Below, piece after piece: positions 1 through 39,072 of a stretch of 64,000 bases of DNA. This DNA comes from Paraspadella gotoi. Lineage: Eukaryota > Animalia > Chaetognatha. Numbering within the stretch: the stretch's first letter is position 1; each line of letters begins with the position of its first letter. Both the position numbers and the translations under genes were made by a program. The notes under the pieces were generated by a model. The model searched no databases, had not been told where the DNA came from, and worked only from the letters and a program-made list of their open reading frames with translations. The stretch spans positions 2,956,026-3,020,025 of the forward strand of contig CM119269.1 in assembly GCA_051294375.1 (NCBI GenBank), read 5' to 3'.

Positions 1-158
1 ATCGGGGGAGGGGGAGGATAATGGATAAAAAATGCATTATGAAGGAGAAATTAAAACAGTTAATCATATTTGCTGATGATGGGAAAGAATGTCAGACTTT
101 CTTTCTTTTTCTCTAAAGAAAAAAAGAAAACAGAAAAAAAAAGAAAAAAAAAGAAATA

Positions 159-209
<51 letters not shown>

Positions 210-593
210 CAAAAAGCAAAAGAAAAAACTCCAGAACTTCTGGCAGAAGGAAAGAATTCCCAAGAAACTAGAAACTAGAGATAATCATCAAGACAGATTT
301 CAAGCGTGGGATGAAGAAGTTATGGGGTCGGCTAAATCTCGCCCCGGCCGCCGGCCTTGGATCCTAAGATGGGGGAGTGAGATTTCGTCTTAATTTTTCC
401 CCGCATCATGGACAATCAGTAGAAAGATCACCAACGAGGATGCTTTCTCGCACGAAATGTGTGGTAGTTAATGAAGCAAAAGGGGGGGGGGGAAGAAGTT
501 TCTTCTCTCGCGATCGAAGAGCGGAAGAGAGGCCGGCCGTTCGCGGACGCCCACTACCCGCCCTTACGCCCCCCTCATTCGAAAGCTTCGCCG

Positions 594-600
594 TATAAAA
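594..600 (+). promoter_or_regulatory. TATA box of the actin gene
   Basis: TATAAAA preceded by a GC-rich stretch, 116 bp upstream of the actin ATG at 716. Confidence 0.55.
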
Positions 601-715
601 GGCGAGAAGTAAACGCCCCGGGTTCACACCCAGCGGACCCGCGACCGAAAAAGAATTCGCCGCCGAAATCTTATTTTCGTTTTGAGTTTTCACCGTCACA
701 GCGAAACCGAGAAAA

Positions 716-2386
<1,671 letters not shown>

Positions 2387-2901
2387 ACGCCCAAAGCAAC
2401 GAAAGAAAATTATGAAGCTTTGGTTTTGTTGAATGAAATAAAAATTACGACAAATCTACAGTACAGCAACCAACCGATCCACAAAACGTTGACACAATGT
2501 ATTTCCATTACGATAGCTTCAAAGCAACACTATCATTAGTTATGCTATAAAAATTGAAGTTTGATAGAAATAACGCAACTATGATCACCTTGTATTTTAA
2601 AAAAAATATAATCATTCATTCATTCATCCATTAATTTACTGCAACGCTAATATTGTTATGACATTCCTTGTACTGGTGCAACAAATCTGAGATTGGTAAA
2701 TAAATAATAAATTCTTTCAAGCAAATTAAACGTCATTTTTTATTCTGGTTCATAAAAGCCATCAAACTATGCACGAAAAGCTGAAAATTCTAATTAAATG
2801 ATAGATAAATAATAAATTCTAATTAAATACGTAATAAGAACATAAATATTCAAAAAAAATAGTAGACTTATTCTGAATTTTAAGAAGCATGAATAAATAG
2901 T

Positions 2902-5232
2902 TTACCTGAGTGAGTAAGGACTGACGTAAGGTTGATGCTGCATTGCGGCCTGCCAAGCGGGATGCAGCATCGGTGACACTAATTGCGGCGAGGTGATTTG
3001 CGGAAAGTTGGAGAAGGTGGGAACCAGAGCGTAACCGGGCGGAGGCTGATATCCTTCTAAGGAAGGCTGCTGCGCTTGCTGCGGAGGAAGATGATGATGC
3101 GATGTACGACGCGTCGGGGATTTCTCTTCCCTTGGTCTTCCGCGCGAGTTTCGAGATTCGAAGTTTCCGTCCGACGGCGAAGAAGGCGGCGAACCCGTTC
3201 TTCTTCTTCTCTCTTGATGATTGACAAAAGAAAAGAACTCGTTTATGTTTAAATTATAAGCGAAGGCACGCAATGCGCGATCACCTCTCTCTCTGTCGCT
3301 GTTCAACCTCATCGACGGAAATCGCTGGTCATCGTCGTCTTCCGCGCGACGCCGCAGCCGCTGCTCCGCAATCTGCCGCTCCAACTCTTTTCTAAAAAAC
3401 GGAAAAATAACTAATTTGATAAAATCACATGATAACCTTAAATTTTCCCAGTGACCAATTTGACCACTTTTTTTCCACTCTCACCGATACTCCTCTTTTT
3501 TCCGAAAGTCGGCGCTTCTCGTGTCTCGCTCGCCGATGAGGGGCAGACGAGACACAGAGACTTCTGGCTCGAAGAAGCCGTTGGGGGCGCTTTGGGATCG
3601 GAGCCGCTCTCTTTCGCGCCTGAAACAAAGTCAAAAGCGAAATTCAAATAATTCGAGTTGAAAAATTTGTGTCCAGAGGAAACGAAAAAAAAAACAAACC
3701 TGAGATGATCGATGTCGTCGTCGTCCCAAAGACGATCCTCTTTGGCGACTCTATGTCTGTCTTCCTCGCGACGATTCTGGTAAATAATTAAATATGAAAA
3801 TTAACCGAAAAAACGTAACGAAGATAGGGTCCTGAAATGGTGCTTCCCACTTACTTTCCATCGCCTTTTGCTCTCTTCCACAATGCCGTTGGCGTCTTTC
3901 CAGGCCGATTTCACGGCGGTTCCATCAACGACGTCGTCGTCTTCAATGTCAGCGTCGTTTCTCCGACTCTTGACTTGAGATCCGGGACTTCTGATCCAAT
4001 CGGGATAATATAATATTCATAAAATTTAGCTACTTGTATTTTGATGCAAGTGCGGAGAATAATATGAATATAGTATTCCCCGATCTAATGTTTAAGAGAG
4101 TGGTCTGTTCATAGAATTGAAACATTCTTTGAAATATTACACCACTTCATTGATGGGGAAGCCAGGTACCCTGGGAGTGAATAAACGAGACTGTGAGAGA
4201 GTCTTGAGTGAAAGGGACCTGCTGTGTCATTATCTTGTAAGAGTGATGGAGGCCTTAAACCACCAAAGCCTGCCCAAAGTCACGGGCAAGATAGCTTATT
4301 TATTAAATGAATGGTTTAAAAAAGAATTAAAAAAAATAAGTCTAAACAAAAGGTTGATATAGATTCGAACCTGTCGCGACGATGTCCGCCACTATTGTCG
4401 GGAAATCTTTTTTTACTCCTCCCCAGATTTCCACCATCATCTTCATTATCTTCTCTTCCTTCTCTTCCACTTCCCCGCTCGTTTCGCCCCAACATCAGAT
4501 TCAGTTTCTGACTATCGGTGACGTTGTTCTTCGGCGCCGATTTCGCCGCCATGATGTCGTTATACTCGCGGCGCCGCTGCTCCTGGAGCCGGCGTGAAAT
4601 CTCCGCGTGGGCGCCGAGTTTGGCGAAGAGGCCACCGCCTTCGAAGGCCGCGTCCGGGGTGTTCGGTCGCATCCGGCGAGACTTAAGAGGTTTAAATAAA
4701 TAAATAAAATATTGAAGAGACAGAAATAATTGTTACACGAGTTAATGACAGAATCGTTCATTATAAGTAGTCCCTGAGCTTCGGACCAGACTGCAACACC
4801 GTGTTACTGGCGTGGTAACGCCCCGTCCCTCTAAACTGTTAAGCGACCACCGGGGTAGAACCCATGACCTTTGGGTTGGTAGGCGAATGACATGCCTCCT
4901 GCGACAATGGCCGCTGATTAACGATTGTTGGATTTTTATAATATCTATGATACATATGAACGTATGATACATATATGATACATATATGATACATACGTAC
5001 ATATGAATATAAACTCGGCTTACGTTTGGTGACAGGTTTTTTCATTCATTCATTTTATCTCATTGAGTAATATCCACTAAACAAATGAACAACTCACCCG
5101 CAGAGGGAAGCGTTTCGGTCTCTCCGAAATGGACGGAAATTTATCCGTCGACGCGAAATCCAATGAAGGAGTGTCTGCCGAGGAGGAAGCGAAAAAAAAG
5201 AATAAACGAAAAAATGAGGAAAAAGGAAGAGA

Positions 5233-5284
<52 letters not shown>

Positions 5285-5798
5285 ATTTCCCCGAAGTGGA
5301 AACGAGATTTTGCAAAGCTCTAAAATATCGATTTGAAATCCCCAGTGGCGCAGAACCGGAGGTGGAGGAAAGGGATGGCAGAAAAAACGGCGGAAGAGCG
5401 AATGAGAAACTTGCGTGATAAATACCGCATTTAGTCGTCTTAACAACCAAGATCTTAACGGATAATTCTCATAAAATATGACCTTAGGCGAAGGCTGAGC
5501 CTTAGCGAAGGTATGATAATACAAAAATTAAAATTTTTTAAAGATCTTTTAAATTTTTTTAAAAAAATTTCAAATCAAAATTTCCCAGAAATTTGTTTAT
5601 AAAAAATGAACTACAAGACTTAGACAATAATCTAAAGTAATTCTAATTTATATATATAATACTAAATTAAATTAACTGACCTTCGATCCCCTTCCTTTCG
5701 TCGTCGATGAGACGCTTTTGCTCTTGAATAAAATCTTCTACTTCGACGCGAGATTCGCGACGCCGCTGGGACGGCGCCGCCGCCTCGCTCGAGGTCAT
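2902..5798 (-). CDS. CSPP1: CSPP1-like centrosome/cilium protein, about 423 aa as modelled; 3' end uncertain
   Basis: Exons 5798-5681, 5174-5098, 4681-4371, 3990-3855, 3776-3700, 3619-3485, 3391-3285, 3212-2902 have consistent phases. VEDFIQEQKRLIDDERK resembles the CSPP1 N-terminus (LDEFIEEQKARLAEDK); LGAHAEISRRLQEQRRREYN and RKKEEYRKELERQIAEQR resemble CSPP1 coiled-coil motifs (recalled). Confidence 0.75.
4034..4314 (+). repeat. Interspersed repeat family A, copy 1 (~280 bp)
   Basis: Aligns by eye in reverse complement to 11419-11698, and partly to 24711-24885. Confidence 0.85.
4725..4935 (-). mobile_element. tRNA-derived SINE family B, copy 1
   Basis: Diverged reverse complement of 29111-29330; lies in a CSPP1-like intron. 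Confidence 0.7.
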
Positions 5799-6159
5799 TA
5801 ACACAGGTTCGTCGATGTCGCGAACAGATTCTTGACAGTATCAACGCGTCCCTGAAGCCATTTGATTCGAAGGCACTTTCGGTTAGCGAACAATTCCGGA
5901 TCAGTCTTTCAAACGCAAATTTTTTTTCTTCTTTCCGTCCTACAACGTTACGCAAATGAAAACATGCTCTTTTCTGTAGAGATCACTCTTTATTTCTTAC
6001 AGACTCAGGAAACAATGAAAAGAAATACTACTACTGCATACATACACAGATTTCTAAAAACATTCCTACAACCAATATCGTTGAGTTTTTTAATGATGTG
6101 TATAAATAAAAGAGATGACTAGTTTTTTTCCTTTTTTTTTTCTTCTATACAATCGGGGA

Positions 6160-8631
6160 TCACAGGGTGAACTCTTCCAACTCTTCGTCCTGATCGAAGA
6201 AGAGGCCGACGTTTCCTTGACTCTTGAATTTGTTCATCGCCGGCTGCGGCTTAACGATCTCCGGTCTCCCGAACGCGTCTTCAAAGTCCCTGGCGGCGCC
6301 GAATCCCCTGTTCCGACGGCCAAAGACTTCCTCGGCGTCCTCGAAGGTCACGTTGGCGGTCAAAAAGTTCGGAGCGGCGGGACTGCCCGAGTTGGTCGGC
6401 GCATCATCATCCCAAGGAAATAGAGAGCGCTTCTTGTCGCCGCCCCCCGTCGTCGTAGTTGTCGTTGTAGCCGCCTGACGCCCGTATTCTTGGCGCCCCT
6501 GCGACGTCGGAAAGGACGTTTCCGTCTCCCAAGGAAAAGAGGCCTTGGGCGGCGTCGCTGGTCCGCTTTGATGTCGTCCCGGCGTCCCGAAATCCGATCC
6601 GGCGTTGATCTTGTTGGTCGAGGGCGCGTCCTCGAACCCGCCAAAAGACGGCGCGTATCCACCACCATCGCCGAAAAGATCGTTCAAAAGGTTCTTCTTC
6701 CGAGAGACCGAGTTGGGACTCCCTCTCTCGGTTTTCGAGGCCTCAGTCGTCCGAAAGGGTTTGGCGGGACCGAAGAGACCACCGTTGCCGAACTCCTCGC
6801 CCTCGTCGCTTCCCCGTCCGCCGTTGACGACCTCGTCACGGCCCCGGGATCCGCGGTCCTCCGCGAAGGGACCGCCCGAGAAGGGCCCGTCAAAGGCGGA
6901 AGGTCCGAAGGTGAGGCCGGCCACTGGTTGACTTCTCTCCGTCTCGCTTTTCTTTTTTTTCTCCAGATCCATTGAGAGGATGGACGACGGGATCTCAGGC
7001 TTTTCGCGAAGGACTCGCTCGTAGGTGGTATTACCGTCGTCTATGTCTCTCATCTTTCGCAGTAACTGGCGGCGTTTCTCCTCCATTGCTTCGTCCGTCA
7101 TCGACGCCTTCCTCTTCTCTTCATCCTCTTCCTCCGCTCGTTTTTTCGCCTCCTCTTCGGCCTGGCGACGGTGGGCTTCCTCCTCTTTTCTTCTTTTCTC
7201 TTCTTCTTCCTCTTTTCTCTTCTTCTCCTCCTCCTGCCTCTCCCTTTCCGCCCTCTCGCGCATCTCCAATTCGAAGGACATTTTCTTCTCTTTCTCCTCT
7301 TCAAACTTTTTCAGCAGGGCTTCCTCTTCTCTCTCTTTTTTATCCTCCTGTTCTTTTCTCTCCTTTTCCTCTCTCTCCCTCCTCTCTTCATCCTCCCTAC
7401 TTTTCTCCATCTCCTCCTCCTCCCTTCGCTTTCTCTCCTCGTCGTCTTTCTTTTCCTCTCCTTCTTCTCTTCTCCTCAGGGGACTCCGCTCCGACTTGAC
7501 CCTCCGCCGCTGTTCGACCTGCTTCTGCCTGGAGGCTGCCCTCGAAGCGGCTCTGGAGGCCAGAGAAGTCGAAGAGGCGCCGGCCGCGAGGCGATTGGCC
7601 GGCTTGCGGTTGCTGTAAATGTTGGTGATGTCCAAAATTCTTTCTTGCTCTTTGCACTGAATCTTCAACGCGTCTAACTCGGTGGTGACTCTGACCAAGT
7701 TCTTGGATGTTTCCAAATGCTTGGCCCTCTCAACGTTGACCTGTCGGTTGAGATTCTTCTGAAGGTTCTCCGCGTAGCGCTGGAGTGAGTTGGTCTTTTC
7801 CTGCGACTCCGCCAGCCTCTTCTCGACATCCTCCAGGCGTCGGCGGTAGACGTCCCTGTCGAGCAGCTGTTTGTCCGCGGAGAGACTCGTCAACTTTTTC
7901 AGTTGCGAATTCTTTTCGTTGGATTCTGTCTCCAAGTAGGCGGTTCTTCTCTCCGACCGGTCCAGCTGGTCCCTCAACTTCTTGATTTGATCCTTGAGGG
8001 AATTGACCTCCTTGGAGTGTTGGGTCACGAGACGCGGCAGCTCGCTCTCTTTATCTTCGAACTTTTCCAGCGCCTTCTCCTGTTTGACTTGGGTTCGCTT
8101 CAGGATCCTGTTCTCCTCCCTCAGTTCACGCAGCTGGACGATCATTTCCTCGTTCTCGTTCTTCAGGTCGTTCATCTTGAGGCGACGGGCGGAGAGGAGA
8201 CGTTGAATGGCGGCCTTCTCCGTCGCGTCGGGTCCTTTGGCGGCGGCCAGGGACGTCTTGTGCGAAGCCTGGGCCGCCTTCAGCCGCGTCATGGGGTGCG
8301 TGGGGCGGGTGGGGTTGTTGGCCTGCGGAGGAGCTCGAGATCGGCGGCTTCCGCCGCCCGCGCCGGTTGCACCCTCGCCGCCTTTCATCCTGGGCGTCTT
8401 CACTTTGTGGGGGACGGAGTCGGCTTGCTTTGGAGCTTCGTCTTCGCTGAAGTCGTCGGAATAGTCGGAATCGTCATCGTCGTAATCGTCGTCATCGGTT
8501 TCTTCCGAATTGTATTTGTTGAGCGACTTATTGCTTCCTTGGACAAAACTCTTTTTCATGCTAAGCGAGGAATCTTTAATCGTGTTCTTTGTGAAGGAAA
8601 ACTCGGCCTGTGACAGGACGGCGGTCGTCAT
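6160..8631 (-). CDS. LCA5: Lebercilin (LCA5/LCA5L family), 823 aa, single coding exon
   Basis: Uninterrupted ORF from ATG 8631 (MTTAVLSQ). Lebercilin domain QRLLSARRLKMNDLKNE...QEKALEKFEDKESELPRLVTQHSKEVNSLKDQ; IYSNR motif; acidic C-terminus DEELEEFTL. Confidence 0.92.
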   Translation of the reverse strand: MTTAVLSQAEFSFTKNTIKDSSLSMKKSFVQGSNKSLNKYNSEETDDDDYDDDDSDYSDDFSEDEAPKQADSVPHKVKTPRMKGGEGATGAGGGSRRSRAPPQANNPTRPTHPMTRLKAAQASHKTSLAAAKGPDATEKAAIQRLLSARRLKMNDLKNENEEMIVQLRELREENRILKRTQVKQEKALEKFEDKESELPRLVTQHSKEVNSLKDQIKKLRDQLDRSERRTAYLETESNEKNSQLKKLTSLSADKQLLDRDVYRRRLEDVEKRLAESQEKTNSLQRYAENLQKNLNRQVNVERAKHLETSKNLVRVTTELDALKIQCKEQERILDITNIYSNRKPANRLAAGASSTSLASRAASRAASRQKQVEQRRRVKSERSPLRRREEGEEKKDDEERKRREEEEMEKSREDEERREREEKERKEQEDKKEREEEALLKKFEEEKEKKMSFELEMRERAERERQEEEKKRKEEEEEKRRKEEEAHRRQAEEEAKKRAEEEDEEKRKASMTDEAMEEKRRQLLRKMRDIDDGNTTYERVLREKPEIPSSILSMDLEKKKKSETERSQPVAGLTFGPSAFDGPFSGGPFAEDRGSRGRDEVVNGGRGSDEGEEFGNGGLFGPAKPFRTTEASKTERGSPNSVSRKKNLLNDLFGDGGGYAPSFGGFEDAPSTNKINAGSDFGTPGRHQSGPATPPKASFPWETETSFPTSQGRQEYGRQAATTTTTTTGGGDKKRSLFPWDDDAPTNSGSPAAPNFLTANVTFEDAEEVFGRRNRGFGAARDFEDAFGRPEIVKPQPAMNKFKSQGNVGLFFDQDEELEEFTL

Positions 8632-8893
8632 GGCAAAGGAGGGAGAAGACAGTCGAATTTTTTTTTTTTTTTTATCCTCCGTGATCGATACAAGTTTTTT
8701 AAATTTTGAAAAACAATTTATCCGATATAAAAACAAAATAAGGAGGTTTGAATCTTTGGAGTCGGTTTGTTTTTCATAAAATCTAATAAAGACGCTCTGA
8801 CTCAGAGACTCTGAGGCAGATATAATGCGAAAAATTATTGTTTTTTGGATTGTCTTTATTGCATAGCCTTAAGAGTTGATGACAGTTGATGCG

Positions 8894-8907
8894 GTTGCTA
8901 TGGCGAT
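8894..8907 (-). promoter_or_regulatory. RFX X-box upstream of LCA5
   Basis: ATCGCCATAGCAAC on the minus strand matches the X-box consensus RTHNYY-WT-RRNRAC at all 14 positions, ~260 bp upstream of the ATG of a ciliary gene. Confidence 0.75.
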
Positions 8908-9213
8908 TAAAGTCGCCACAACACTAAGGCTTTTGTTCGGAAAAAAAAACTTTGGTTGGAGAAGAGCGACACGAGACTGGTGCGGTAAAACAAAATACTA
9001 ATTACAAGAAAAATATGGTTTTAAATATAAAATGTCGAAAATTATTTGTCGTCGCTTAATTTATAATTTATCATAAAAGTATAACAATAACAAATCATAC
9101 ATAACTTAACGGTCGATATTTGATTTTTCAATATTTGATATTTCAATAAATTACCTCCAAACAAGAAAGATGATTATTATCTAATTAGAAACATCGAGCA
9201 GAAAATATTTATA

Positions 9214-9345
9214 ATCTCGTATTGTGTAGATGTTTTATCGATTTCCAGAAGACAACACTAACATCCCTCTCCCCTTAACAATTACAATTTACAATTTTTC
9301 CCAAATTTAGTTTAATAGAGTAAAACAAGTAATTTTGCAATTTTT
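9214..9345 (+). repeat. Interspersed repeat family E fragment
   Basis: Shares TAGATG...ATTTCCAGAAGACAACACT and AAACAAGTAATTT with 38616-38823. Confidence 0.55.
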
Positions 9346-11124
9346 ATAAACAGAAGCAATGGTGCACATATTATTCTACAAACAAATCCGTGTTTTTTGA
9401 AGTTACGTGATTATTTTTAATATTAACGAACTATCTAGAAAAAATGGATTAGTTCCAGAACCGGCACGGAAGACTAAGTCTATCACAGTAAAAGAATGAA
9501 AGCTAAGTCCGAATACAAACTTTAATGTCGAATATAAAAATTTTAACTCAGAAAATCAGTTAGACCTGACCTAATAAAATCGTCCAGCAGAATGATTGCT
9601 ATGAGCAACAAAAAAAAAAAAAAAACTTTTTTGTCTCCTCTGGAAGAGCTTCTTCTTGACGCAGCCGAGTTATAAGGCGCGCCGAATCAAGGCTTAATTA
9701 CAGCTATTGTGACTAATTTAAAAACAATTTTTTAACATCGAAAACTTAGTATTTCGTTACTACAACCGGAACAAAATCGTGAATCGAAGTTCTTGGTAAG
9801 GAACCAGTGGGAGCAGCAAAACACCCGCGGCGGAGGCGACAGCAGCGGCTGCAGCGTTTTCACTTCGCCGGGCAGAAGTAACGACGCAGCTTCGTACTCC
9901 CTGTGGCGGCGGTGAAGTCGACCAGGACGACGACGACGAAATCGACGGAGAACTCGGCGATTCCCGACTTTTCCTTAAACATTTATAATCTCTTTTGAAT
10001 TGGAATGTGTTTAATGCGAAATAATTCCAATCTGTTTTTTTCATTTTCTCGGTCGTTTGTTTAACTTCTGTGAAGTTTTAAGGAAACTCAGAAAACAACT
10101 AAAAAAAATGAAAATCGTAAAAAAGATAATTCGTAAATTATATGCTTTTTTAAAGGCAGCTATCGTTTGTCGTTTTTAAAATTATGGCAATAATATCTGT
10201 AAAAATTTAACTTTCTAAGTAACGGTTAATCATAATTAAAACTAAATAATTCTTAGATAATAGAAGGTATATTTTGCGGTTGATTTTATTATTTTCACCG
10301 TAATGCGGGCTTAACCTAACGATTATATTTTAGATATGAATGCAGATTTTTCTCTCGGCACTTTGAACTGAAAATTTTATCGGTATCGCAATAAAATATT
10401 TTTTTGACAATCAACTCAACACTTGATAAAGCTCGGTTTATTCCGCTTCGAGAAATTAAAGTCGAATGTCAGGACGTTAATTAAATTTACTTCATTACAG
10501 GAAAAACGTCATCGGTCAACACCCTCCTTTCGTGGAATTCTAACTTTCGTGAGTAATGATTTGGAAAATATTTAGGATTATAATGGTTATACTTTTGTTT
10601 ACAGTATGTATGTGTAATGTTTATGATTATCGTATAGTTTTTCTAAGGTGATTAAACTTTTTTTTTCAATCTTCTGATGCGGTGAGAATAAAAAACCTAT
10701 AAAGAATTTTCTTTTTTTTGTTATAACGCTGACATTTCAGCTCACAGACGCACAACAACAACTTCAGCAAAAGTTCGTATGATGAAATTTATGCTTAGGA
10801 AAAACTTTTTTTTTTTAAATTTGATCGAATCAGCAATCAGCATGTGACTGTGTTACTAACTATCCTTTGCTATTAAGCATGCTTGTCTCTACATCATTTC
10901 TCCTCCGTACAAAGAAGTTGCGGAAAGGAGATCAAGCTAGCCATTTTTCGTTTTGTAATTTTTTCTACCCCTTTTTTAAAACTTTTTTTCTGTTTTTCTT
11001 GCGAGCCCCCCCCCCTTTCGGAAATGTGAGAAAATTTGACCATATCGATCGACGTCGGCGATTCGTCACTAAACCCGTCGTAATTTTTACATTTCTTCCT
11101 TCGCGCGAAGTGGGCGACGACGCG

Positions 11125-12451
11125 ATGGCGGACAAGCGAGCGGAAAAGAGTGGATTTGCGGCAGAGATGCAAGACAAAGTGTTGGCGAAATACTGCGAGG
11201 AAGACGCCGCCAGAGTGTTGGCGTGGATATCCAGCCACATTGGAGAGTCGTTCGACTGCTCCGGTTCGTTTTACAATTTTTTTTAAAATTTACATCAATG
11301 TTTACACCATGGCCAATGGCCATGCTCACGTTTCAGCCTCTGTAATTTTCAGTAAATCGCGGCGACTAGTTTTCTCATGTTTACTTTATGAAATTGGTAC
11401 AACCAATATAAAAATTATCCATTCATTTAATAAATAAGCTATCTTGCCCCTGACTTTGGACAGGCTTTGGTGGTTTAAGGCCTCCATCACTCTTACAAGA
11501 TAATTACATAGCAGGTCCCTGCAAGCTTTCAATCAAGACTCTCTCACAGTCCCGTTTATTCACTCCCAGAGTACCTGGCTTCTCTATCAATGAAGTGGAA
11601 AATATTTCAAAGAATGTTTCAATTGTATGAAAAGACCACTCCCTTAAGTATTAGATCGGGGAATACTTATTGTACTCCGCACTAGCATCAAAATACAATT
11701 ATGTAATTTAAGAAAGAAGTATTACATTGTTGCATGCATTCTTTCAATTTTTTATCAAATCCTTCATCAATTCATTCAATTAGGCTAGAATTTAATAAAG
11801 TATGAAAGGTTCCTTTTAAATTAACATCCACCTCAGGTTCCATGGACAACTTCCAAGCGCAGCTCCAAGACGGTCAGCGCCTCTGCAAACTCATGAACGC
11901 CCTCAAAGCGGGCGCCATAAAAAGGATCAACGGTGGGAAGCTCGTCTTCAAGTGGATGGAAAACATCAACAACTTCAACGTCGCCTGCAAGGAATTCGGG
12001 GTTCCCGAGATGGAGACCTTCCAAGCTGTCGATCTCATTGAAAGGGTGAGTGATGTGAAAGGCGAATGCTGAATTATTAAGGTTTCAAACGCAACTGTCC
12101 ATTTAAAGAAAAAGTTTCATCAATGACTGAACGTTTTCAGGTGAACCTCCACCAAGTCGTCTTGTGCTGCAATGCCTTGGCGCGAAAGGCGCAGGCAGCG
12201 GGTTTGAGAGGCTTCGGACCCAAAGAGGCCGTCCAGAACACCAGGGATTTCTCGGATGAACAGCGAAAGGTTTGATCGGAAAACAGCGATTCCTTGCTTT
12301 GCGGTTTAAAATTTTAAAGTAGAACACTAATTGATTTTCAAATGCAAACTTAAAACTACAGGCTGGTCAAAGCGTCATCGGGCTTCAGATGGGTTCGAAC
12401 CAGGGAGCCACGCAAAGCGGACAAAACTTTGGCAATTTCCGTCACATGTGA
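11125..12451 (+). CDS. Transgelin/myophilin/Mp20-like protein (calponin-homology domain plus calponin repeat)
   Basis: Exons 11125-11263, 11837-12045, 12141-12269, 12362-12451 give MADKRAEKSGFAAEMQDK...LQDGQRLCKLMN...FQAVDL...GPKE...IGLQMGSNQGATQSGQNFGNFRHM*. Candidate non-coding 5' exons at 10501-10548 and 10741-10777. Confidence 0.95.
11419..11698 (-). repeat. Interspersed repeat family A, copy 2
   Basis: Inverted copy of 4034-4314 in the first coding-region intron of the transgelin gene. Confidence 0.85.
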
Positions 12452-12830: not shown

Positions 12831-28293
<15,463 letters not shown>

Positions 28294-29110: not shown

Positions 29111-29330
29111 AAAATCCACCAACCGTTCATCAGCGGCCATTGGTGCCGGAGGCAAGTCATTCGCCTCCCAACCCAAAGGTCCGGGGTTCTAGCCCGATGG
29201 TCGTCTGGTAGTTAAGAGGGACGGGGCGCTTAACCCGCCTGTAACTCGGTGTTACAGCCTGATCCGAAGCTCAGGGACTGCTTATATTGAACGGTTCTGT
29301 CACTAACACAACAATTATCATTGTCTCTTC
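29111..29330 (+). mobile_element. tRNA-derived SINE family B, copy 2
   Basis: tRNA-like head: GCGGCCAT (29133) can pair with ATGGTCGT (29197-29204); B-box-like GGTTCTAGCCC at 29185-29195; CGCCTCCCA resembles the tRNA-Gly(CCC) anticodon region. A ~120-bp tail is shared with 4725-4935. Confidence 0.7.
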
Positions 29331-33927: not shown

Positions 33928-36251
33928 ATGGATTTATTTTCTGGCGCTGTCCTTCTTTGCTTGACGGCCGCCGCGCTGTCAATGCTGATTTACGAGCCAA
34001 ACATTCCATGGGACGCAGTTGACTACTGGACAATCTGGAGGTTTGAGCGTCTTCGTCGCCTTTTATATTTCACGAAGAAAATAACTGGGAAAAAGATGAT
34101 CCAGCCAGGGGCTTATCCAATACCAGAGGCGCGAGACGATCCAGACCTTGCTGTCACCAGGACGAAGCTTGGCGGCGTTAAAGTCACAGTCTATGATCCA
34201 GTTAGACGAAAAGAGACAGCGATAATGTCAGAGGGAAAGCAGGGAAGATCGCCCGCTTTGCTTTATCTGCATGGCGGAGGTTGGGCCTTGGGTTCGGTCG
34301 ATGCCTACGACGTTAATGTGTAAGTATTAAGAAATTTTGAATTGATTTTTAATTATTATTTAAAATTCTTCAAATCACACATCTTAAAATATTAATTTTT
34401 ATTAATCAATCTTTAAATTCCTTTAATTAATTTATCCAGGCGTTATTTAGCGAAATTACTAGGCAACTTCGTTGTCATTTCTGTTGATTATCGCCTGGCG
34501 CCGAGTCACGTGTACCCAGCGGCCATCGATGACGCCTTCTCGGCCTTCAAACATCTCGTCCAAGAGTCGGAGACGTTTCGTGTTGACAAAGAGAAAATCG
34601 TTGTCGCTGGAGACTCAGCCGGAGGTAATGTGCAGGTGTTTATAGTAGTGTTTGCAATACGTTCTCATTTGATTGATATTATATTTTTATTTACTTTATC
34701 CTTTGCTTATTCTTTCTCTATAATTACTTTTCATTAATTAATTAAATTTCTTATTGATTTATTTCAGCAGTTCCGATAATAAAGATGGCTTAAGAATTTT
34801 TGACGAAAATTTCACAGGCAATTTGGCCGCGGCTCTATGTCTCAAAGTCAGAGATTTGAACAATCTATTGGAAGACAAGAAGAAATTGACTCCACCCAAG
34901 CTTCAGGCGTTAATGTGAGCAGTCATTTTGACAAAATAGAATGATGGTCCTGTTTAGGTATGTCAAATTTTAAAATTAGAGCTATTTCATTTATATTTAG
35001 TATAAATATTTAAATCAATATTTGAAGAAATTTAATGATATTTTTATATCAAAGGCTGTGTAGTTTGTGATTTGCTTTTACTTAGAGTTAAAATAACCAA
35101 ATGACAAATCCACAAAGCAGCTCACTTCTCTCTTTTCAGCTACCCAGCCTTGCAAGCGGTCGACTTTAAAACTCCATCTTACATGTCTCCTGGACCAATA
35201 TTGGATCCAGACATGATGGCGGCCTTTTGGGCCAACTACTTGACAGGAAGCGAGGAAGGCTACGACAAGCTGCTGGACAACCAACATGTCTCTGCTGAGA
35301 TGGTAATTAGAAATATTTTATCAATTTGTATAAAAAAAACTGCTGACTTTTAACGATTTTCAGTATGAACGATACTCCGCCCCATATGTGAACCACAATT
35401 TGATACCGGCCCACTTTAAAGTTTCCACTTATCGTGAAGCCAAAAAATCTGAAAAAAGCTCATTCGACCCAGAATTGGGCATGAAATTTAAAAGAATGAT
35501 TACTGATCCCTACTTTGCGCCGTTGATGGCAGAAAACCTTGGGGATCTGCCACCAGCTTACATCATCGCTGGTCAATACGACGTGCTCAGGTAAAATGAC
35601 TATCATATGCTTACTTCATTTTTTAGTTGCGCCGCTGTAAGTCACTTTTTGGTTGGTCTGTCGGTCGGTCCATCGGTATGTTTATCCGTCGGTCTATCCC
35701 ACTTACGTTAAAAATACATATAATTTGCTTATAGCTGGTTATTCATTTGTTAAGACAGAAAAAAACCTCAAATCAAAGGGACTGCTAGCATCGCCTTCAA
35801 GAATTCCGAAAAACTATAAGGAATGAAAAATGGAATTTTGATGCAGTGCATATCATAAATACACGGACAAAATATTTTTTTTAGTCATGTTATGTCATAT
35901 CATGTGATCAAAGGGAAATACGCGTGAAAATAAAGTCGCGGCGCAACACATTGGAATTACGGTTCTTGTAAAATTGAATATGAAAACAGATTTAATTTAA
36001 TTTAAAATTTTAAATAATTTTTAAATACATAAGACTTTTTTTCTTCTTCACATTTTTAAAAAAAATTTGCCAGGGACGATGCCATCCTTTTTGCAAATAG
36101 ACTGAAAAAATCTGGTGTAGATACTACACTCAATGTGGTGAATGGAGCATGGCATGCTGTCATGTTCATGAACGACTACTTCACAATGCCTACCGGAATC
36201 AAAATGTGGGAGGAGACGGTCGACTTTATACTGTCGAAATGTAAAATGTAA
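33928..36251 (+). CDS. AADAC/NCEH1-like GDXG (HSL family) carboxylesterase, copy 1
   Basis: N-terminal hydrophobic anchor, LYLHGGGW, SVDYRLAP, GDSAGGNLAA, YPALQ, DPYFAPL, YDVLRDD and GAWHA; last exon 36074-36251. Confidence 0.93.
35619..35969 (+). mobile_element. Family D, DINE-1/HINE-like element, copy 3 (most complete)
   Basis: Subterminal inverted repeat GTTGCGCCGC (35626-35635) / GCGGCGCAAC (35938-35947), (GTCG/GTCC)-type microsatellite, T-rich 5' flank, ends in TTCTTGT. Confidence 0.7.
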
Positions 36252-36582
36252 AATGTAAAATGTAAAATTCTCCAAAAACATACAAGATGAACGACTGATG
36301 ATATTTGAAAAACTCAACGTTGATGACCCCTGCGCTGATTCGTGGAAAAATCAAGTAAAAACCACAACCAAGCTTACTCAAGCCCAAATGTTAAAAATAA
36401 TGTTCTCAACAGAAATTTAACTCACTGGAAAATGACTTAAAACAACTCTCACACTAAAAAAAAATTATTTGATATCTATCGACTAAACGGCTTTGATCTC
36501 TGCCAATAATTATTATAGAAAATTAAAACCATAAGTCATTTTGTCTTTTTTTTTAAATTTTTGATTAAGTCGCGGTGCACAG

Positions 36583-36592
36583 NNNNNNNNNN
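36583..36592. other. Assembly gap (10 N)
   Basis: Run of N. Confidence 1.
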
Positions 36593-36665
36593 ACTGTACA
36601 TCGCGTCTTAAATAAACAAGATTTTGTTTCGCCGCCAAAATTGATCAAAACGACAGCCTCCCGCG

Positions 36666-39072
36666 ATGGCCCTCTCTTCCCGCGCCGCTTTTCTCTGTTT
36701 GGCCACAGCGGCGCTGGCGGCGCTGATCTACGAGCCGAACGTTCCCTGGGACGCCGTCGAATACTGGACGATCTGGAAATTCGAGCGTCTACGTCGACTT
36801 CATTGTCTCATGGACGCAATCAGCGGCGAGAAGATCATTCAGCCAGGGACTTATCCGATTCCATCGCGGGCGGCGCCCAATGATCCGGAACTCGCCGTCA
36901 CGCGGACAAAGTTTGACGGCGTCGACGTCCAAGTCTACGATCCGTCGGGGCGAAGAGAGGCGGCGACGGAGGCGAAAGGGAAGAAGGGAAAATCGCCCGC
37001 TCTGCTTTATTTTCACGGCGGAGGATGGTGCTTGGGATCGACGGAGGTGTACGACGCCACCGTGTGAGTTCATCATAAATTTGAATATTTATTATTTACG
37101 TTATGGCAACGGGGAGACGTGTGTGATGCCCGGGGTGTGAGGCATCTGCCGACAGCTGGCGCTCAGGGCTTTGGACCTGCAGTGATCACCCCATGTCATT
37201 GGCGTGTTTATACCGACAACATCACACTTTATCCAGCGTGACGGTTGGTGAATGTGTACTTAGCTGTCCAAGCCAATGGGACGAGCTGAGTTTCACCAAG
37301 CTATACGGGAGGCGAAATTAGGATTCGCCACAACAAATTTATTTATAAAATTATTTCAGAAATTTCCTTCTCTTCAGGCGCCACCTGACCAAATCGCTTG
37401 TCAACTTTCTCGTCGTCTCCGTGGATTATCGCCTGGCGCCGAGTCACGTGTTTCCGGCCGCCGTTGACGACGTCTTCGCCGCCTTCAAACATCTCGTCAC
37501 GGAGGCGGAGGCGTTCGGGGTGGATGAGGAGAAAATCGTCGTTGCCGGAGACTCCGCCGGAGGTGTGGACTGTGGAGGCGATTAAAAAGACATTCATTTA
37601 ATATTGTAATATTTTAAAACTTTTATACTCATGATTTAATTACATACAGGCAATTTGGCGGCGGCCATCAGTCTGAAAATCCGAGACTTCATTAGAACAT
37701 CCAAGGAAGGGGCTAAAATTCCGCCACCAAAGATTCAGATTATGCTGTCAGTAACTTGTGATTGCGACGCAATGGGGCTTGTATATAACATAGTATATAT
37801 ATTCCGTAATACCGAAAAGGTTTTGTTTATTTTATGTTGTGTCATGTAATGAACTTGGTGATAGTGTGGCTTATTTAAATAGTAGATTTAGTGCTTGCCT
37901 TTTTGTTCATCCATCAGCTATCCGGCCTTGCAAGCAGTTGATTTCAAGACGCCGTCCTACACATCTCCGATGCCATTTTTGACGCCATATTGGATGACGG
38001 CCTTTTACGCCACTTATCTCACGGGAAGCGAAGATCACTATGACGAGCTGTTGGAGAATCAGCACGTTTCACCGGAGATGGTGAGAGAAGGTGTCACAGT
38101 GGATGACGTATTAATAAATTAACTATTATTTTTATTACTTTAAATTAAGTACGAAAAATATTCTGCCCGCTACGTGAACCACGACTTGATCCCGTCCGAC
38201 CTCCGAGCGGCGGCCGACTCCACCGCGCTCCAGTCCGTCCGCTCCTACGACCCGGCTCTAGGCGCCAAGTTCGAGCGGATGATAACGGATCCCTACTTCG
38301 CGCCGCTGATGGCCGAAGACTTGACGGATCTTCCGCCAGCCTACATCGTCGCCTGTCAGTACGACGTGCTGAGGTTGGTCAATGGTCAATGGTCAATGAA
38401 CAACAATTGGTTCTTTTGTTTTTGTCGTGATGAAGATTTGAAAACGGCGTTGAGAATAATTTGCTGTTTTCGTAAACCCCCCCCCCAAAAAAAATAAGCT
38501 CAATGATTTCGTGTTAAACTTTGTGATAAGCCTCGATCAGAAAAAATACAAGTAAATTTAGATCTACGTCAAAAGGAGGTATATAATAGTAATCTATAAA
38601 TAAAAGTAATCTAACCTTGTGTTGTATAGATGCTCCCTCTATTTCCAGAAGACAACACTGACTTCCCCTTCCCAAATTGAATTATTAGATAAATAAAACA
38701 TTTTTAAAAAAGAAAGCAATATATGTTTGATTAAATAATATAGATTAAATACTAAATCCTTCATAAAAATATTAAAATATTAAAATAGAAAAATAGAAAA
38801 TAGTGAAACAAGTAATTTGCAAATTTTCTTATATTAGTCATTGTAGTTAAGTAAAAATTTTGTTAAAATTACAAAAAAATGAAAAAAAAACTTTTTTTAG
38901 GGACGACGCCATCCTTTACGCCCACCGGCTGAAAGCGTCCGGCGTCTCCGCGACCCTCAACGTCGTCAAGGGGGCGTGGCACGGCGTCTTATTCAGAGGG
39001 GCGGGATTTCGGATTCCACTCGGGGACGAATTGTGGAAAGAGACGGTCAAGTTTATACGAGAGAGAATTTGA
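36666..39072 (+). CDS. AADAC/NCEH1-like GDXG carboxylesterase, copy 2
   Basis: Same motifs (YFHGGGW, GDSAGG, YDVLRDD, GAWHG) and the same intron positions as copy 1; ends FIRERI* at 39072. Confidence 0.93.
37106..37317 (-). mobile_element. SINE-like repeat family C, copy 1
   Basis: Shares CGGGGAGACG...CTGGCG..AGGG...GGAC...TGTCA-TGGC with 54890-55060; present in intron 1 of esterase copy 2 only. Confidence 0.45.
38616..38823 (+). repeat. Interspersed repeat family E fragment
   Basis: Similar to 9214-9345. Confidence 0.55.

What the first reader, a model, noticed from the sequence alone, without database searches (positions are those of the whole stretch)
5798..8907. Candidate ciliary operon: one X-box, LCA5, then CSPP1 joined through an orphan splice acceptor
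Seen: two ciliary genes on the same strand with only ~360 bp between the LCA5 stop (6160) and the CSPP1-like ATG (5798). That gap holds the LCA5 AATAAA (5994-5989), a branch-point-like GCTAAC (5887-5882) and a TTCAG acceptor (AG at 5854-5853) 55 nt before the ATG. There is little room for a separate promoter, and the only clear X-box lies upstream of LCA5. Known: operons in nematodes, tunicates and flatworms have short intercistronic gaps resolved by SL trans-splicing, and RFX drives ciliary genes. Inference: an RFX-driven polycistronic unit. An alternative is also visible: a GTAAGA donor at 6000-5995, directly before the AATAAA, could cis-splice to the same acceptor, skipping the poly(A) site and giving a bicistronic mRNA.
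Basis: partly seen in the sequence, partly recalled or inferred. Interest (0 to 1): 0.78.

Follow-up and report, generated by a model that had tools for sequence, protein, structure and literature searches.

The report
Candidate LCA5–CSPP1 ciliary gene operon
The cilia gene LCA5 and a likely CSPP1 gene lie head to tail with under 100 bases between their assembled RNAs and keep this order and an upstream RFX-like motif in a related animal, so they likely form a two-gene operon split by leader trans-splicing, a known mechanism that was not seen directly here.

Summary
The motifs are there (acceptor AG is 5853-5852, one base off). LCA5 is confirmed by Pfam; the CSPP1 name is not confirmed by any search. 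A same-class genome (B1) keeps LCA5, the CSPP1-like gene and an antisense actin in the same order and keeps the X-box block upstream of LCA5. Its gap is 2,473 bp, with no sequence similarity to the window's. Spliced contigs of run X1 cover LCA5 (6034-8966) and the downstream gene up to 5939, so the two transcribed regions lie at most 94 nt apart. No leader or bridging contig was listed, but contigs cannot show absence. Acceptor, branch point and donor are each no better than chance. Unchecked notes of this scan call the genome an arrow worm, where SL-resolved operons are common, and describe another operon elsewhere in it; none covers this pair. Verdict: plausible SL-resolved ciliary operon (0.5) versus a separate promoter in the LCA5 3' end (0.35); cis-spliced bicistron unlikely (0.06). 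A new member of a known kind, mechanism unproven; it may already sit in a published operon table that I could not read.

The parts
8894..8938 (-). Conserved block upstream of LCA5 ending in the X-box-like ATCGCCATAGCAAC (8907-8894), 263 nt before the ATG; inside the 5' part of the LCA5 RNA contig
   Evidence: conserved at B1 L001:4219; contig reaches 8966
6160..8631 (-). LCA5/lebercilin coding sequence, 823 aa, intronless here (introns in B1)
   Evidence: Pfam PF15619 E 5e-38; collinear contig 6034-8966; B1 orthologue
5995..6000 (-).
5989..5994 (-). AATAAA, likely LCA5 poly(A) signal, followed by a CA at about 5976 and a U-rich stretch at 5964-5954
   Evidence: sequence; function inferred
5940..5942 (-). 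TAG directly before the first base (5939) of the X1 contig of the downstream gene; alternative acceptor candidate, weak score
5882..5887 (-). GCTAAC, branch-point-like word; chance-level
5841..5861 (-). Upstream ATG in strong context (6-codon ORF) that a splice at 5851 would remove
5852..5856 (-). TTCAG acceptor-like site (AG 5853-5852), best of 23 AGs in the gap; read through unspliced in the X1 contig
5681..5798 (-). First coding exon of the CSPP1-like gene, spliced to exon 2 at 5174
   Evidence: loose end; alignment with B1 L002:3233-3400
2906..5174 (-). Predicted exons 2-7 of the CSPP1-like gene (5174-5098, 4681-4371, 3990-3855, 3776-3700, 3619-3485, 3391-2906), open to a donor at 2905
   Evidence: boundaries of exons 3-7 are predicted
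716..2386 (+). Actin gene, antisense and downstream of the CSPP1-like exons in both genomes

Best explanation
LCA5 and the CSPP1-like gene likely form a two-gene operon: a likely RFX-bound promoter upstream of LCA5 would drive one precursor, which would be cut at the LCA5 poly(A) site near 5976 while the downstream part would be capped by spliced-leader trans-splicing. Shown: the two genes, their order in two genomes, the conserved X-box block, splicing of intron 1, and transcribed regions at most 94 nt apart. Inferred: RFX binding, read-through, the leader and its site. The acceptor is most likely 5851 (best score; removes an upstream ATG), with 5939 and 5973 as alternatives. The 87 nt kept upstream of 5851 in the contig would then be unprocessed precursor.
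For: Same strand; X1 contigs cover 6034-8966 and 5681-5939, so both RNAs come within 94 nt, and the downstream RNA reaches 49 nt from the AATAAA. Order LCA5, CSPP1-like, antisense actin is kept in B1, a different family of the same class. The X-box block is conserved upstream of LCA5; no X-box passed the filtered scan in either gap. In both genomes the best-scoring acceptor of the gap lies just before the ATG and after the last upstream ATG: 5851 here; L002:3112, 3100, 3062 in B1. Unchecked notes call this genome an arrow worm. In Paraspadella gotoi nearly half of genes are trans-spliced, 18% are in operons, and 1,470 of 2,151 gene sets under 250 bp apart carry a leader on at least one gene (PMC12460157, passages and section 10). 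Actin in both genomes has a TATA box, about 100 nt and a CAG just before the ATG with no good donor after the expected start, an outron-like layout (weak).
Against: The acceptor, branch point and donor are chance-level. B1's stop-to-ATG gap is 2,473 bp, shows no similarity to the window's gap in 18 of 18 comparisons (best 18 of 200 shuffles), has AG|GT donors upstream of its acceptors, so these may be ordinary cis acceptors, and has a GC box and CCAAT words near the ATG. Published arrow-worm operons lean to housekeeping genes and away from nervous-system and finely regulated genes. The lineage was not tested by me (one search was uninformative).
Confidence: 0.5

Rival explanations
1. Two separately transcribed neighbours in a compact genome. 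The CSPP1-like gene has its own promoter overlapping the LCA5 3' UTR and terminator and starts at or above 5939; 5939-5852 is 5' UTR or an ordinary outron that may still receive a leader at 5851. The order is old linkage.
For: The contig retains 5852-5939 joined to spliced exons. G+C and CpG rise toward the ATG (27% to 52%). B1's gap is 2.47 kb with promoter-like words. The gap's splice motifs are chance-level.
Against: Any such promoter must lie within the transcribed 3' end of an expressed LCA5. No X-box passed the scan in either gap although one is conserved before LCA5, and no promoter element is conserved across the gap.
Confidence: 0.35
2. Hybrid operon: read-through from the LCA5 promoter in ciliated cells plus an internal promoter for the CSPP1-like gene in other cells, such as dividing cells.
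For: Fits both the retained 5852-5939 segment and the conserved order and X-box. Hybrid operons in nematodes and the mitotic role of CSPP1 are recalled, not checked.
Against: No direct evidence for either kind of start.
Confidence: 0.09
3. A cis splice removes the poly(A) signal (6000 donor to 5851, or a 95-nt GT...AG segment 6034-5940) and gives a mature bicistronic LCA5-CSPP1 mRNA.
For: GTAAGA directly precedes the AATAAA; a second GT...AG pair flanks the signal.
Against: A GTRAG arises in 56% of shuffled gaps; both donors have poor context (TCT|GTAAGA, GCA|GTAGTA). The contig retains 5852-5939, which the first intron would remove. The second ORF of such an mRNA would be poorly translated (general knowledge).
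Confidence: 0.06

Closest known systems
Chaetognath SL-resolved operons: Spadella cephaloptera RPS14-PCNA (PMC2481426, section 12 and passages) and Paraspadella gotoi operons (PMC12460157, section 10 and passages)
   Same: Same-strand pair under 250 bp apart at RNA level; poly(A) signal closely followed by acceptor-like sites; likely the same phylum according to unchecked notes.
   Different: No leader shown here. RPS14-PCNA has 3 nt between poly(A) site and acceptor; here about 125 nt to 5851, about 35 to 5939 and about 2 to 5973. Published operons lean to housekeeping genes; this pair is likely ciliary with a conserved X-box.
Nematode and tunicate operons (PMC7986045, passages)
   Same: Poly(A) signal, U-rich stretch, acceptor about 100 nt downstream resembles the Caenorhabditis spacing (median about 110 bp).
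   Different: Ciona (median 1 bp) and Oikopleura (about 30 bp) are shorter; no SL2-type leader is reported in arrow worms.
RFX/X-box-regulated ciliary genes (consensus GTNRCC N0-3 RGYAAC; PMC10530576 and 10.1101/2020.08.21.260547, passages)
   Same: A near-palindromic X-box-like site close to the 5' end of a ciliary gene, conserved between two genomes.
   Different: The site departs from the strict consensus at its first base and binding is untested; control of a second gene by read-through is the open claim.

Membership tests
SL-resolved eukaryotic operon | Same-strand genes with a short distance between transcribed regions (under 250 bp in PMC12460157) | tested here: met
   At most 94 nt between X1 contigs; 361 nt stop to ATG. 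B1: 2,473 nt stop to ATG, RNA ends unknown.
SL-resolved eukaryotic operon | The species performs spliced-leader trans-splicing | not tested
   Lineage rests on unchecked earlier notes; my actin search did not resolve it; no Rfam match in the window.
SL-resolved eukaryotic operon | Leader joined to the 5' end of the downstream mRNA | tested here: inconclusive
   Only simplified contigs were available; none with a leader was listed at 5851 or 5939, and 27 loose ends were not shown.
SL-resolved eukaryotic operon | Unpaired splice acceptor upstream of the downstream ATG | tested here: inconclusive
   5851 scores above 22 of 36 cis acceptors but is matched by 25-50 of 82 control windows; the contig reads through it.
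SL-resolved eukaryotic operon | Polycistronic precursor across the gap | tested here: inconclusive
   No listed contig joins the genes; contigs cannot show absence.
SL-resolved eukaryotic operon | No capped start of its own for the downstream gene | not testable with these tools
   Needs CAGE, 5' RACE or raw reads.
RFX target gene (LCA5) | X-box-like site near the 5' end, conserved | tested here: met
   8907-8894; block conserved in B1.
RFX target gene (LCA5) | RFX binding or dependence | not testable with these tools
   Needs ChIP, reporter or knock-down.
Lebercilin (LCA5/LCA5L) | Pfam PF15619 above the curated cut-off | tested here: met
   131 bits against 34.3; LCA5 versus LCA5L not distinguished.
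CSPP1 | Sequence match to a named CSPP1 or its C-terminal domain | tested here: inconclusive
   No Pfam hit; 19 profile hits, 10 looked up, none named; no C-terminal exons found in the window or in B1 up to 3 kb beyond the actin start. The name is recalled.

The most novel reading that the evidence does not exclude
A class-wide, RFX-switched operon that couples two ciliopathy genes (LCA5 and CSPP1) under one X-box, with trans-splicing at 5851 removing an inhibitory upstream ATG: a cell-type-regulated, functionally coherent operon in a lineage whose operons are described as housekeeping, and a direct test of whether animal operons group genes by function.
Probability: 0.3. Interest if true: 0.55.

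Novelty: new member of a known kind. Interest (0 to 1): 0.33.

Why it matters
If true, it is a compact case of an animal operon under a cell-type transcription factor, against the reported housekeeping bias of arrow-worm operons, and conserved co-transcription would hint that lebercilin and CSPP1 act together in cilia. The mechanism itself is known. If false, it is two ciliary genes packed closely in a compact genome.

Tried and rejected
No holder is on record as RNA; X1 is taken as RNA because its contig joins 5681 to 5174 exactly. In one search, 5940-6033 has no cover (bin depths equal the two contigs alone), and no leader, no 6001-to-5851 joint and no bridging contig were listed; 61 pieces and 27 loose ends were not shown. 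None of this counts as evidence: the contigs are simplified graphs (10.1101/2024.07.30.605881, passages). The downstream contig begins exactly after TAG (AG makes up 6% and YAG 1.6% of positions there) and the uncovered part is bounded by GT...AG; I note this but do not count it, since contigs cannot show starts, the site scores weakly (above 2 of 36 true acceptors) and the LCA5 contig has one unmatched last base. X2-X4 gave only short pieces. A search for further same-class genomes gave two 27-nt matches outside the phylum, so synteny rests on one genome. Two short words seemed shared between the two gaps; shuffles rejected this. Naming the downstream gene failed. Reading on in B1 found no further exons. 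The bacterial promoter scan does not apply. The acceptor matrix rests on 36 of 39 sites picked by eye; 3 were mislocated and dropped. Paper searches: LCA5+CSPP1+operon 0; operons/ciliary/cilia genes/co-transcribed/spliced leader, 4 of 5 terms, 0; X-box+DAF-19+'in an operon'+ciliary 0; some searches listed 6, 5 and 5 papers, none on this pair by title or abstract start. Three PDF supplements of PMC12460157 lack the gene names; its spreadsheet supplement, likely holding the operon table, was too large to read.

Full report
Observation. The upstream frame 8631-6160 is lebercilin (Pfam E 5e-38). The downstream gene can be modelled as seven exons with a 446-codon open frame ending at a donor at 2905. 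Five of its coding stretches match B1 by tblastn and exon 1 aligns at 31%.

Chance. A matrix from 36 cis acceptors of the window ranks 5851 first of 23 AGs in the gap, but 13.9% of 2,166 YAGs score as well. A site as good occurs in 50 of 82 (long matrix) or 25 of 82 (short matrix) antisense control windows and in 177 or 77 of 500 shuffled gaps. A GTRAG donor arises in 56% and a CTRAC-type branch word in 38% of shuffles. The X-box motif alone is at background frequency. What lifts it above chance is conservation: the block 8938-8894 aligns with the region upstream of LCA5 in B1, with 1, 14 and 1 of 200 shuffles reaching the score under three scorings. No X-box passed the filtered scan in either gap; one unfiltered 8.5 match lies about 1 kb before B1's ATG.

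RNA. One run, X1, holds 66% of the words of 2500-9500. Laid on 5300-10100 it gives two main contigs. One is collinear over 6034-8966, so LCA5 is intronless here and the X-box lies within its 5' part. The other, 3,111 nt long, covers 5681-5939 without a difference and continues into exon 2 at 5174, which shows splicing. The two transcribed regions are therefore at most 94 nt apart, and the downstream one reaches to 49 nt from the AATAAA. These are graph-simplified contigs (Logan preprint, passages); they show what is present, not starts, ends or absence, so they neither show nor exclude a leader.

Relatives. B1, a chromosome-level genome of the same class but another family, has LCA5, the CSPP1-like gene downstream on the same strand and the antisense actin beyond it. 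Its stop-to-ATG gap is 2,473 bp, includes a repeat of about 490 bp, and shows no similarity to the window's gap. Its three best acceptor-like sites lie 121-171 nt before the ATG, after the last upstream ATG. The window's 5851 likewise lies 10 nt after a strong-context upstream ATG. But B1 has possible donors upstream, and GC-box and CCAAT words near the ATG. No second same-class genome was found.

Lineage and literature. My own search did not place the organism. Two unchecked notes of this scan call the genome an arrow worm, one describing a nine-gene operon elsewhere in it. In Paraspadella gotoi about half of the genes are trans-spliced and 18% lie in operons; 1,470 of 2,151 gene sets under 250 bp apart have a leader on at least one gene; operons lean to housekeeping genes (PMC12460157, passages and section 10). 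Spadella's RPS14-PCNA operon has 3 nt between poly(A) site and acceptor (PMC2481426, passages and section 12). Spacings in nematodes and tunicates are from PMC7986045 (passages); the X-box consensus from PMC10530576 and 10.1101/2020.08.21.260547 (passages); PMC9948759 (passages) gave no sequence to test the CSPP1 name. I found no paper on this pair, but the spreadsheet supplement of PMC12460157 could not be read.

Mechanism. The most likely reading (0.5) is an operon. Transcription would start upstream of 8966 under RFX, the precursor would be cut about 13 nt after the AATAAA, and a leader would be added at 5851 (or 5939 or 5973). The genes, order, X-box conservation and close RNA ends are shown; read-through, leader and RFX control are inferred. 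A separate promoter inside the LCA5 3' end (0.35) explains the retained 5852-5939 and B1's long gap as well, but needs a promoter within a transcribed terminator and without a clear X-box. A hybrid (0.09) and a cis-spliced bicistron (0.06) are less likely.

Verdict. Observation partly confirmed, interpretation partly supported. At best a new member of a known kind, notable for being a ciliary, likely RFX-controlled pair conserved within a class. Interest 0.33.

Noticed in passing
window 716-2905; L002:9623-11545; L004:9061: The CSPP1-like frame is still open at a donor (2905) conserved in B1, and the X1 contig (3,111 nt) is about 1,600 nt longer than the modelled exons, so the gene likely continues past the antisense actin gene, which would then be nested in its intron in both genomes. 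No further exon was found.
   Followed up: partly
window 594-716; L004:9189-9061: Actin has TATA box, about 100 nt, and a CAG 6-14 nt before the ATG in both genomes, with no good donor after the expected start: an outron-like layout.
   Followed up: partly
window 6160-8631; L001:5389, about 6362: LCA5 is intronless in the window but has at least two introns in B1: intron loss or gain within the class.
   Followed up: partly
window 27646-27658 and 16200-25200: The best-scoring X-box of the window (GTTGCTAGGAAAC) lies upstream of a minus-strand MYCBPAP gene (Pfam E 2.5e-13); an EF-hand/WD40 gene lies at about 47-54 kb. The window may be rich in ciliary genes.
   Followed up: partly
window 9594-9609: A second X-box-like site 700 nt further upstream of LCA5, between it and the divergent calponin-homology gene at 11125.
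   Followed up: no
B1:C3:80337106-80337234: A second match to CSPP1-like exon 3 (74% over 43 aa), 33 Mb from the syntenic copy.
   Followed up: no
window 33928-39070: Two tandem alpha/beta-hydrolase genes about 410 bp apart with an assembly gap between them, preceded closely by another plus-strand gene (30.6-33.2 kb, tetraspanin-like by eye).
   Followed up: no
window 4030-4300, 11430-11700; 4740-4925, 29130-29320: Two short repeat families seen by eye; the second has a tRNA-like head and may be the element described in several earlier notes.
   Followed up: no
L003:9583-10094: B1's actin exon 2 segment is repeated about five times in tandem inside the following intron.
   Followed up: no
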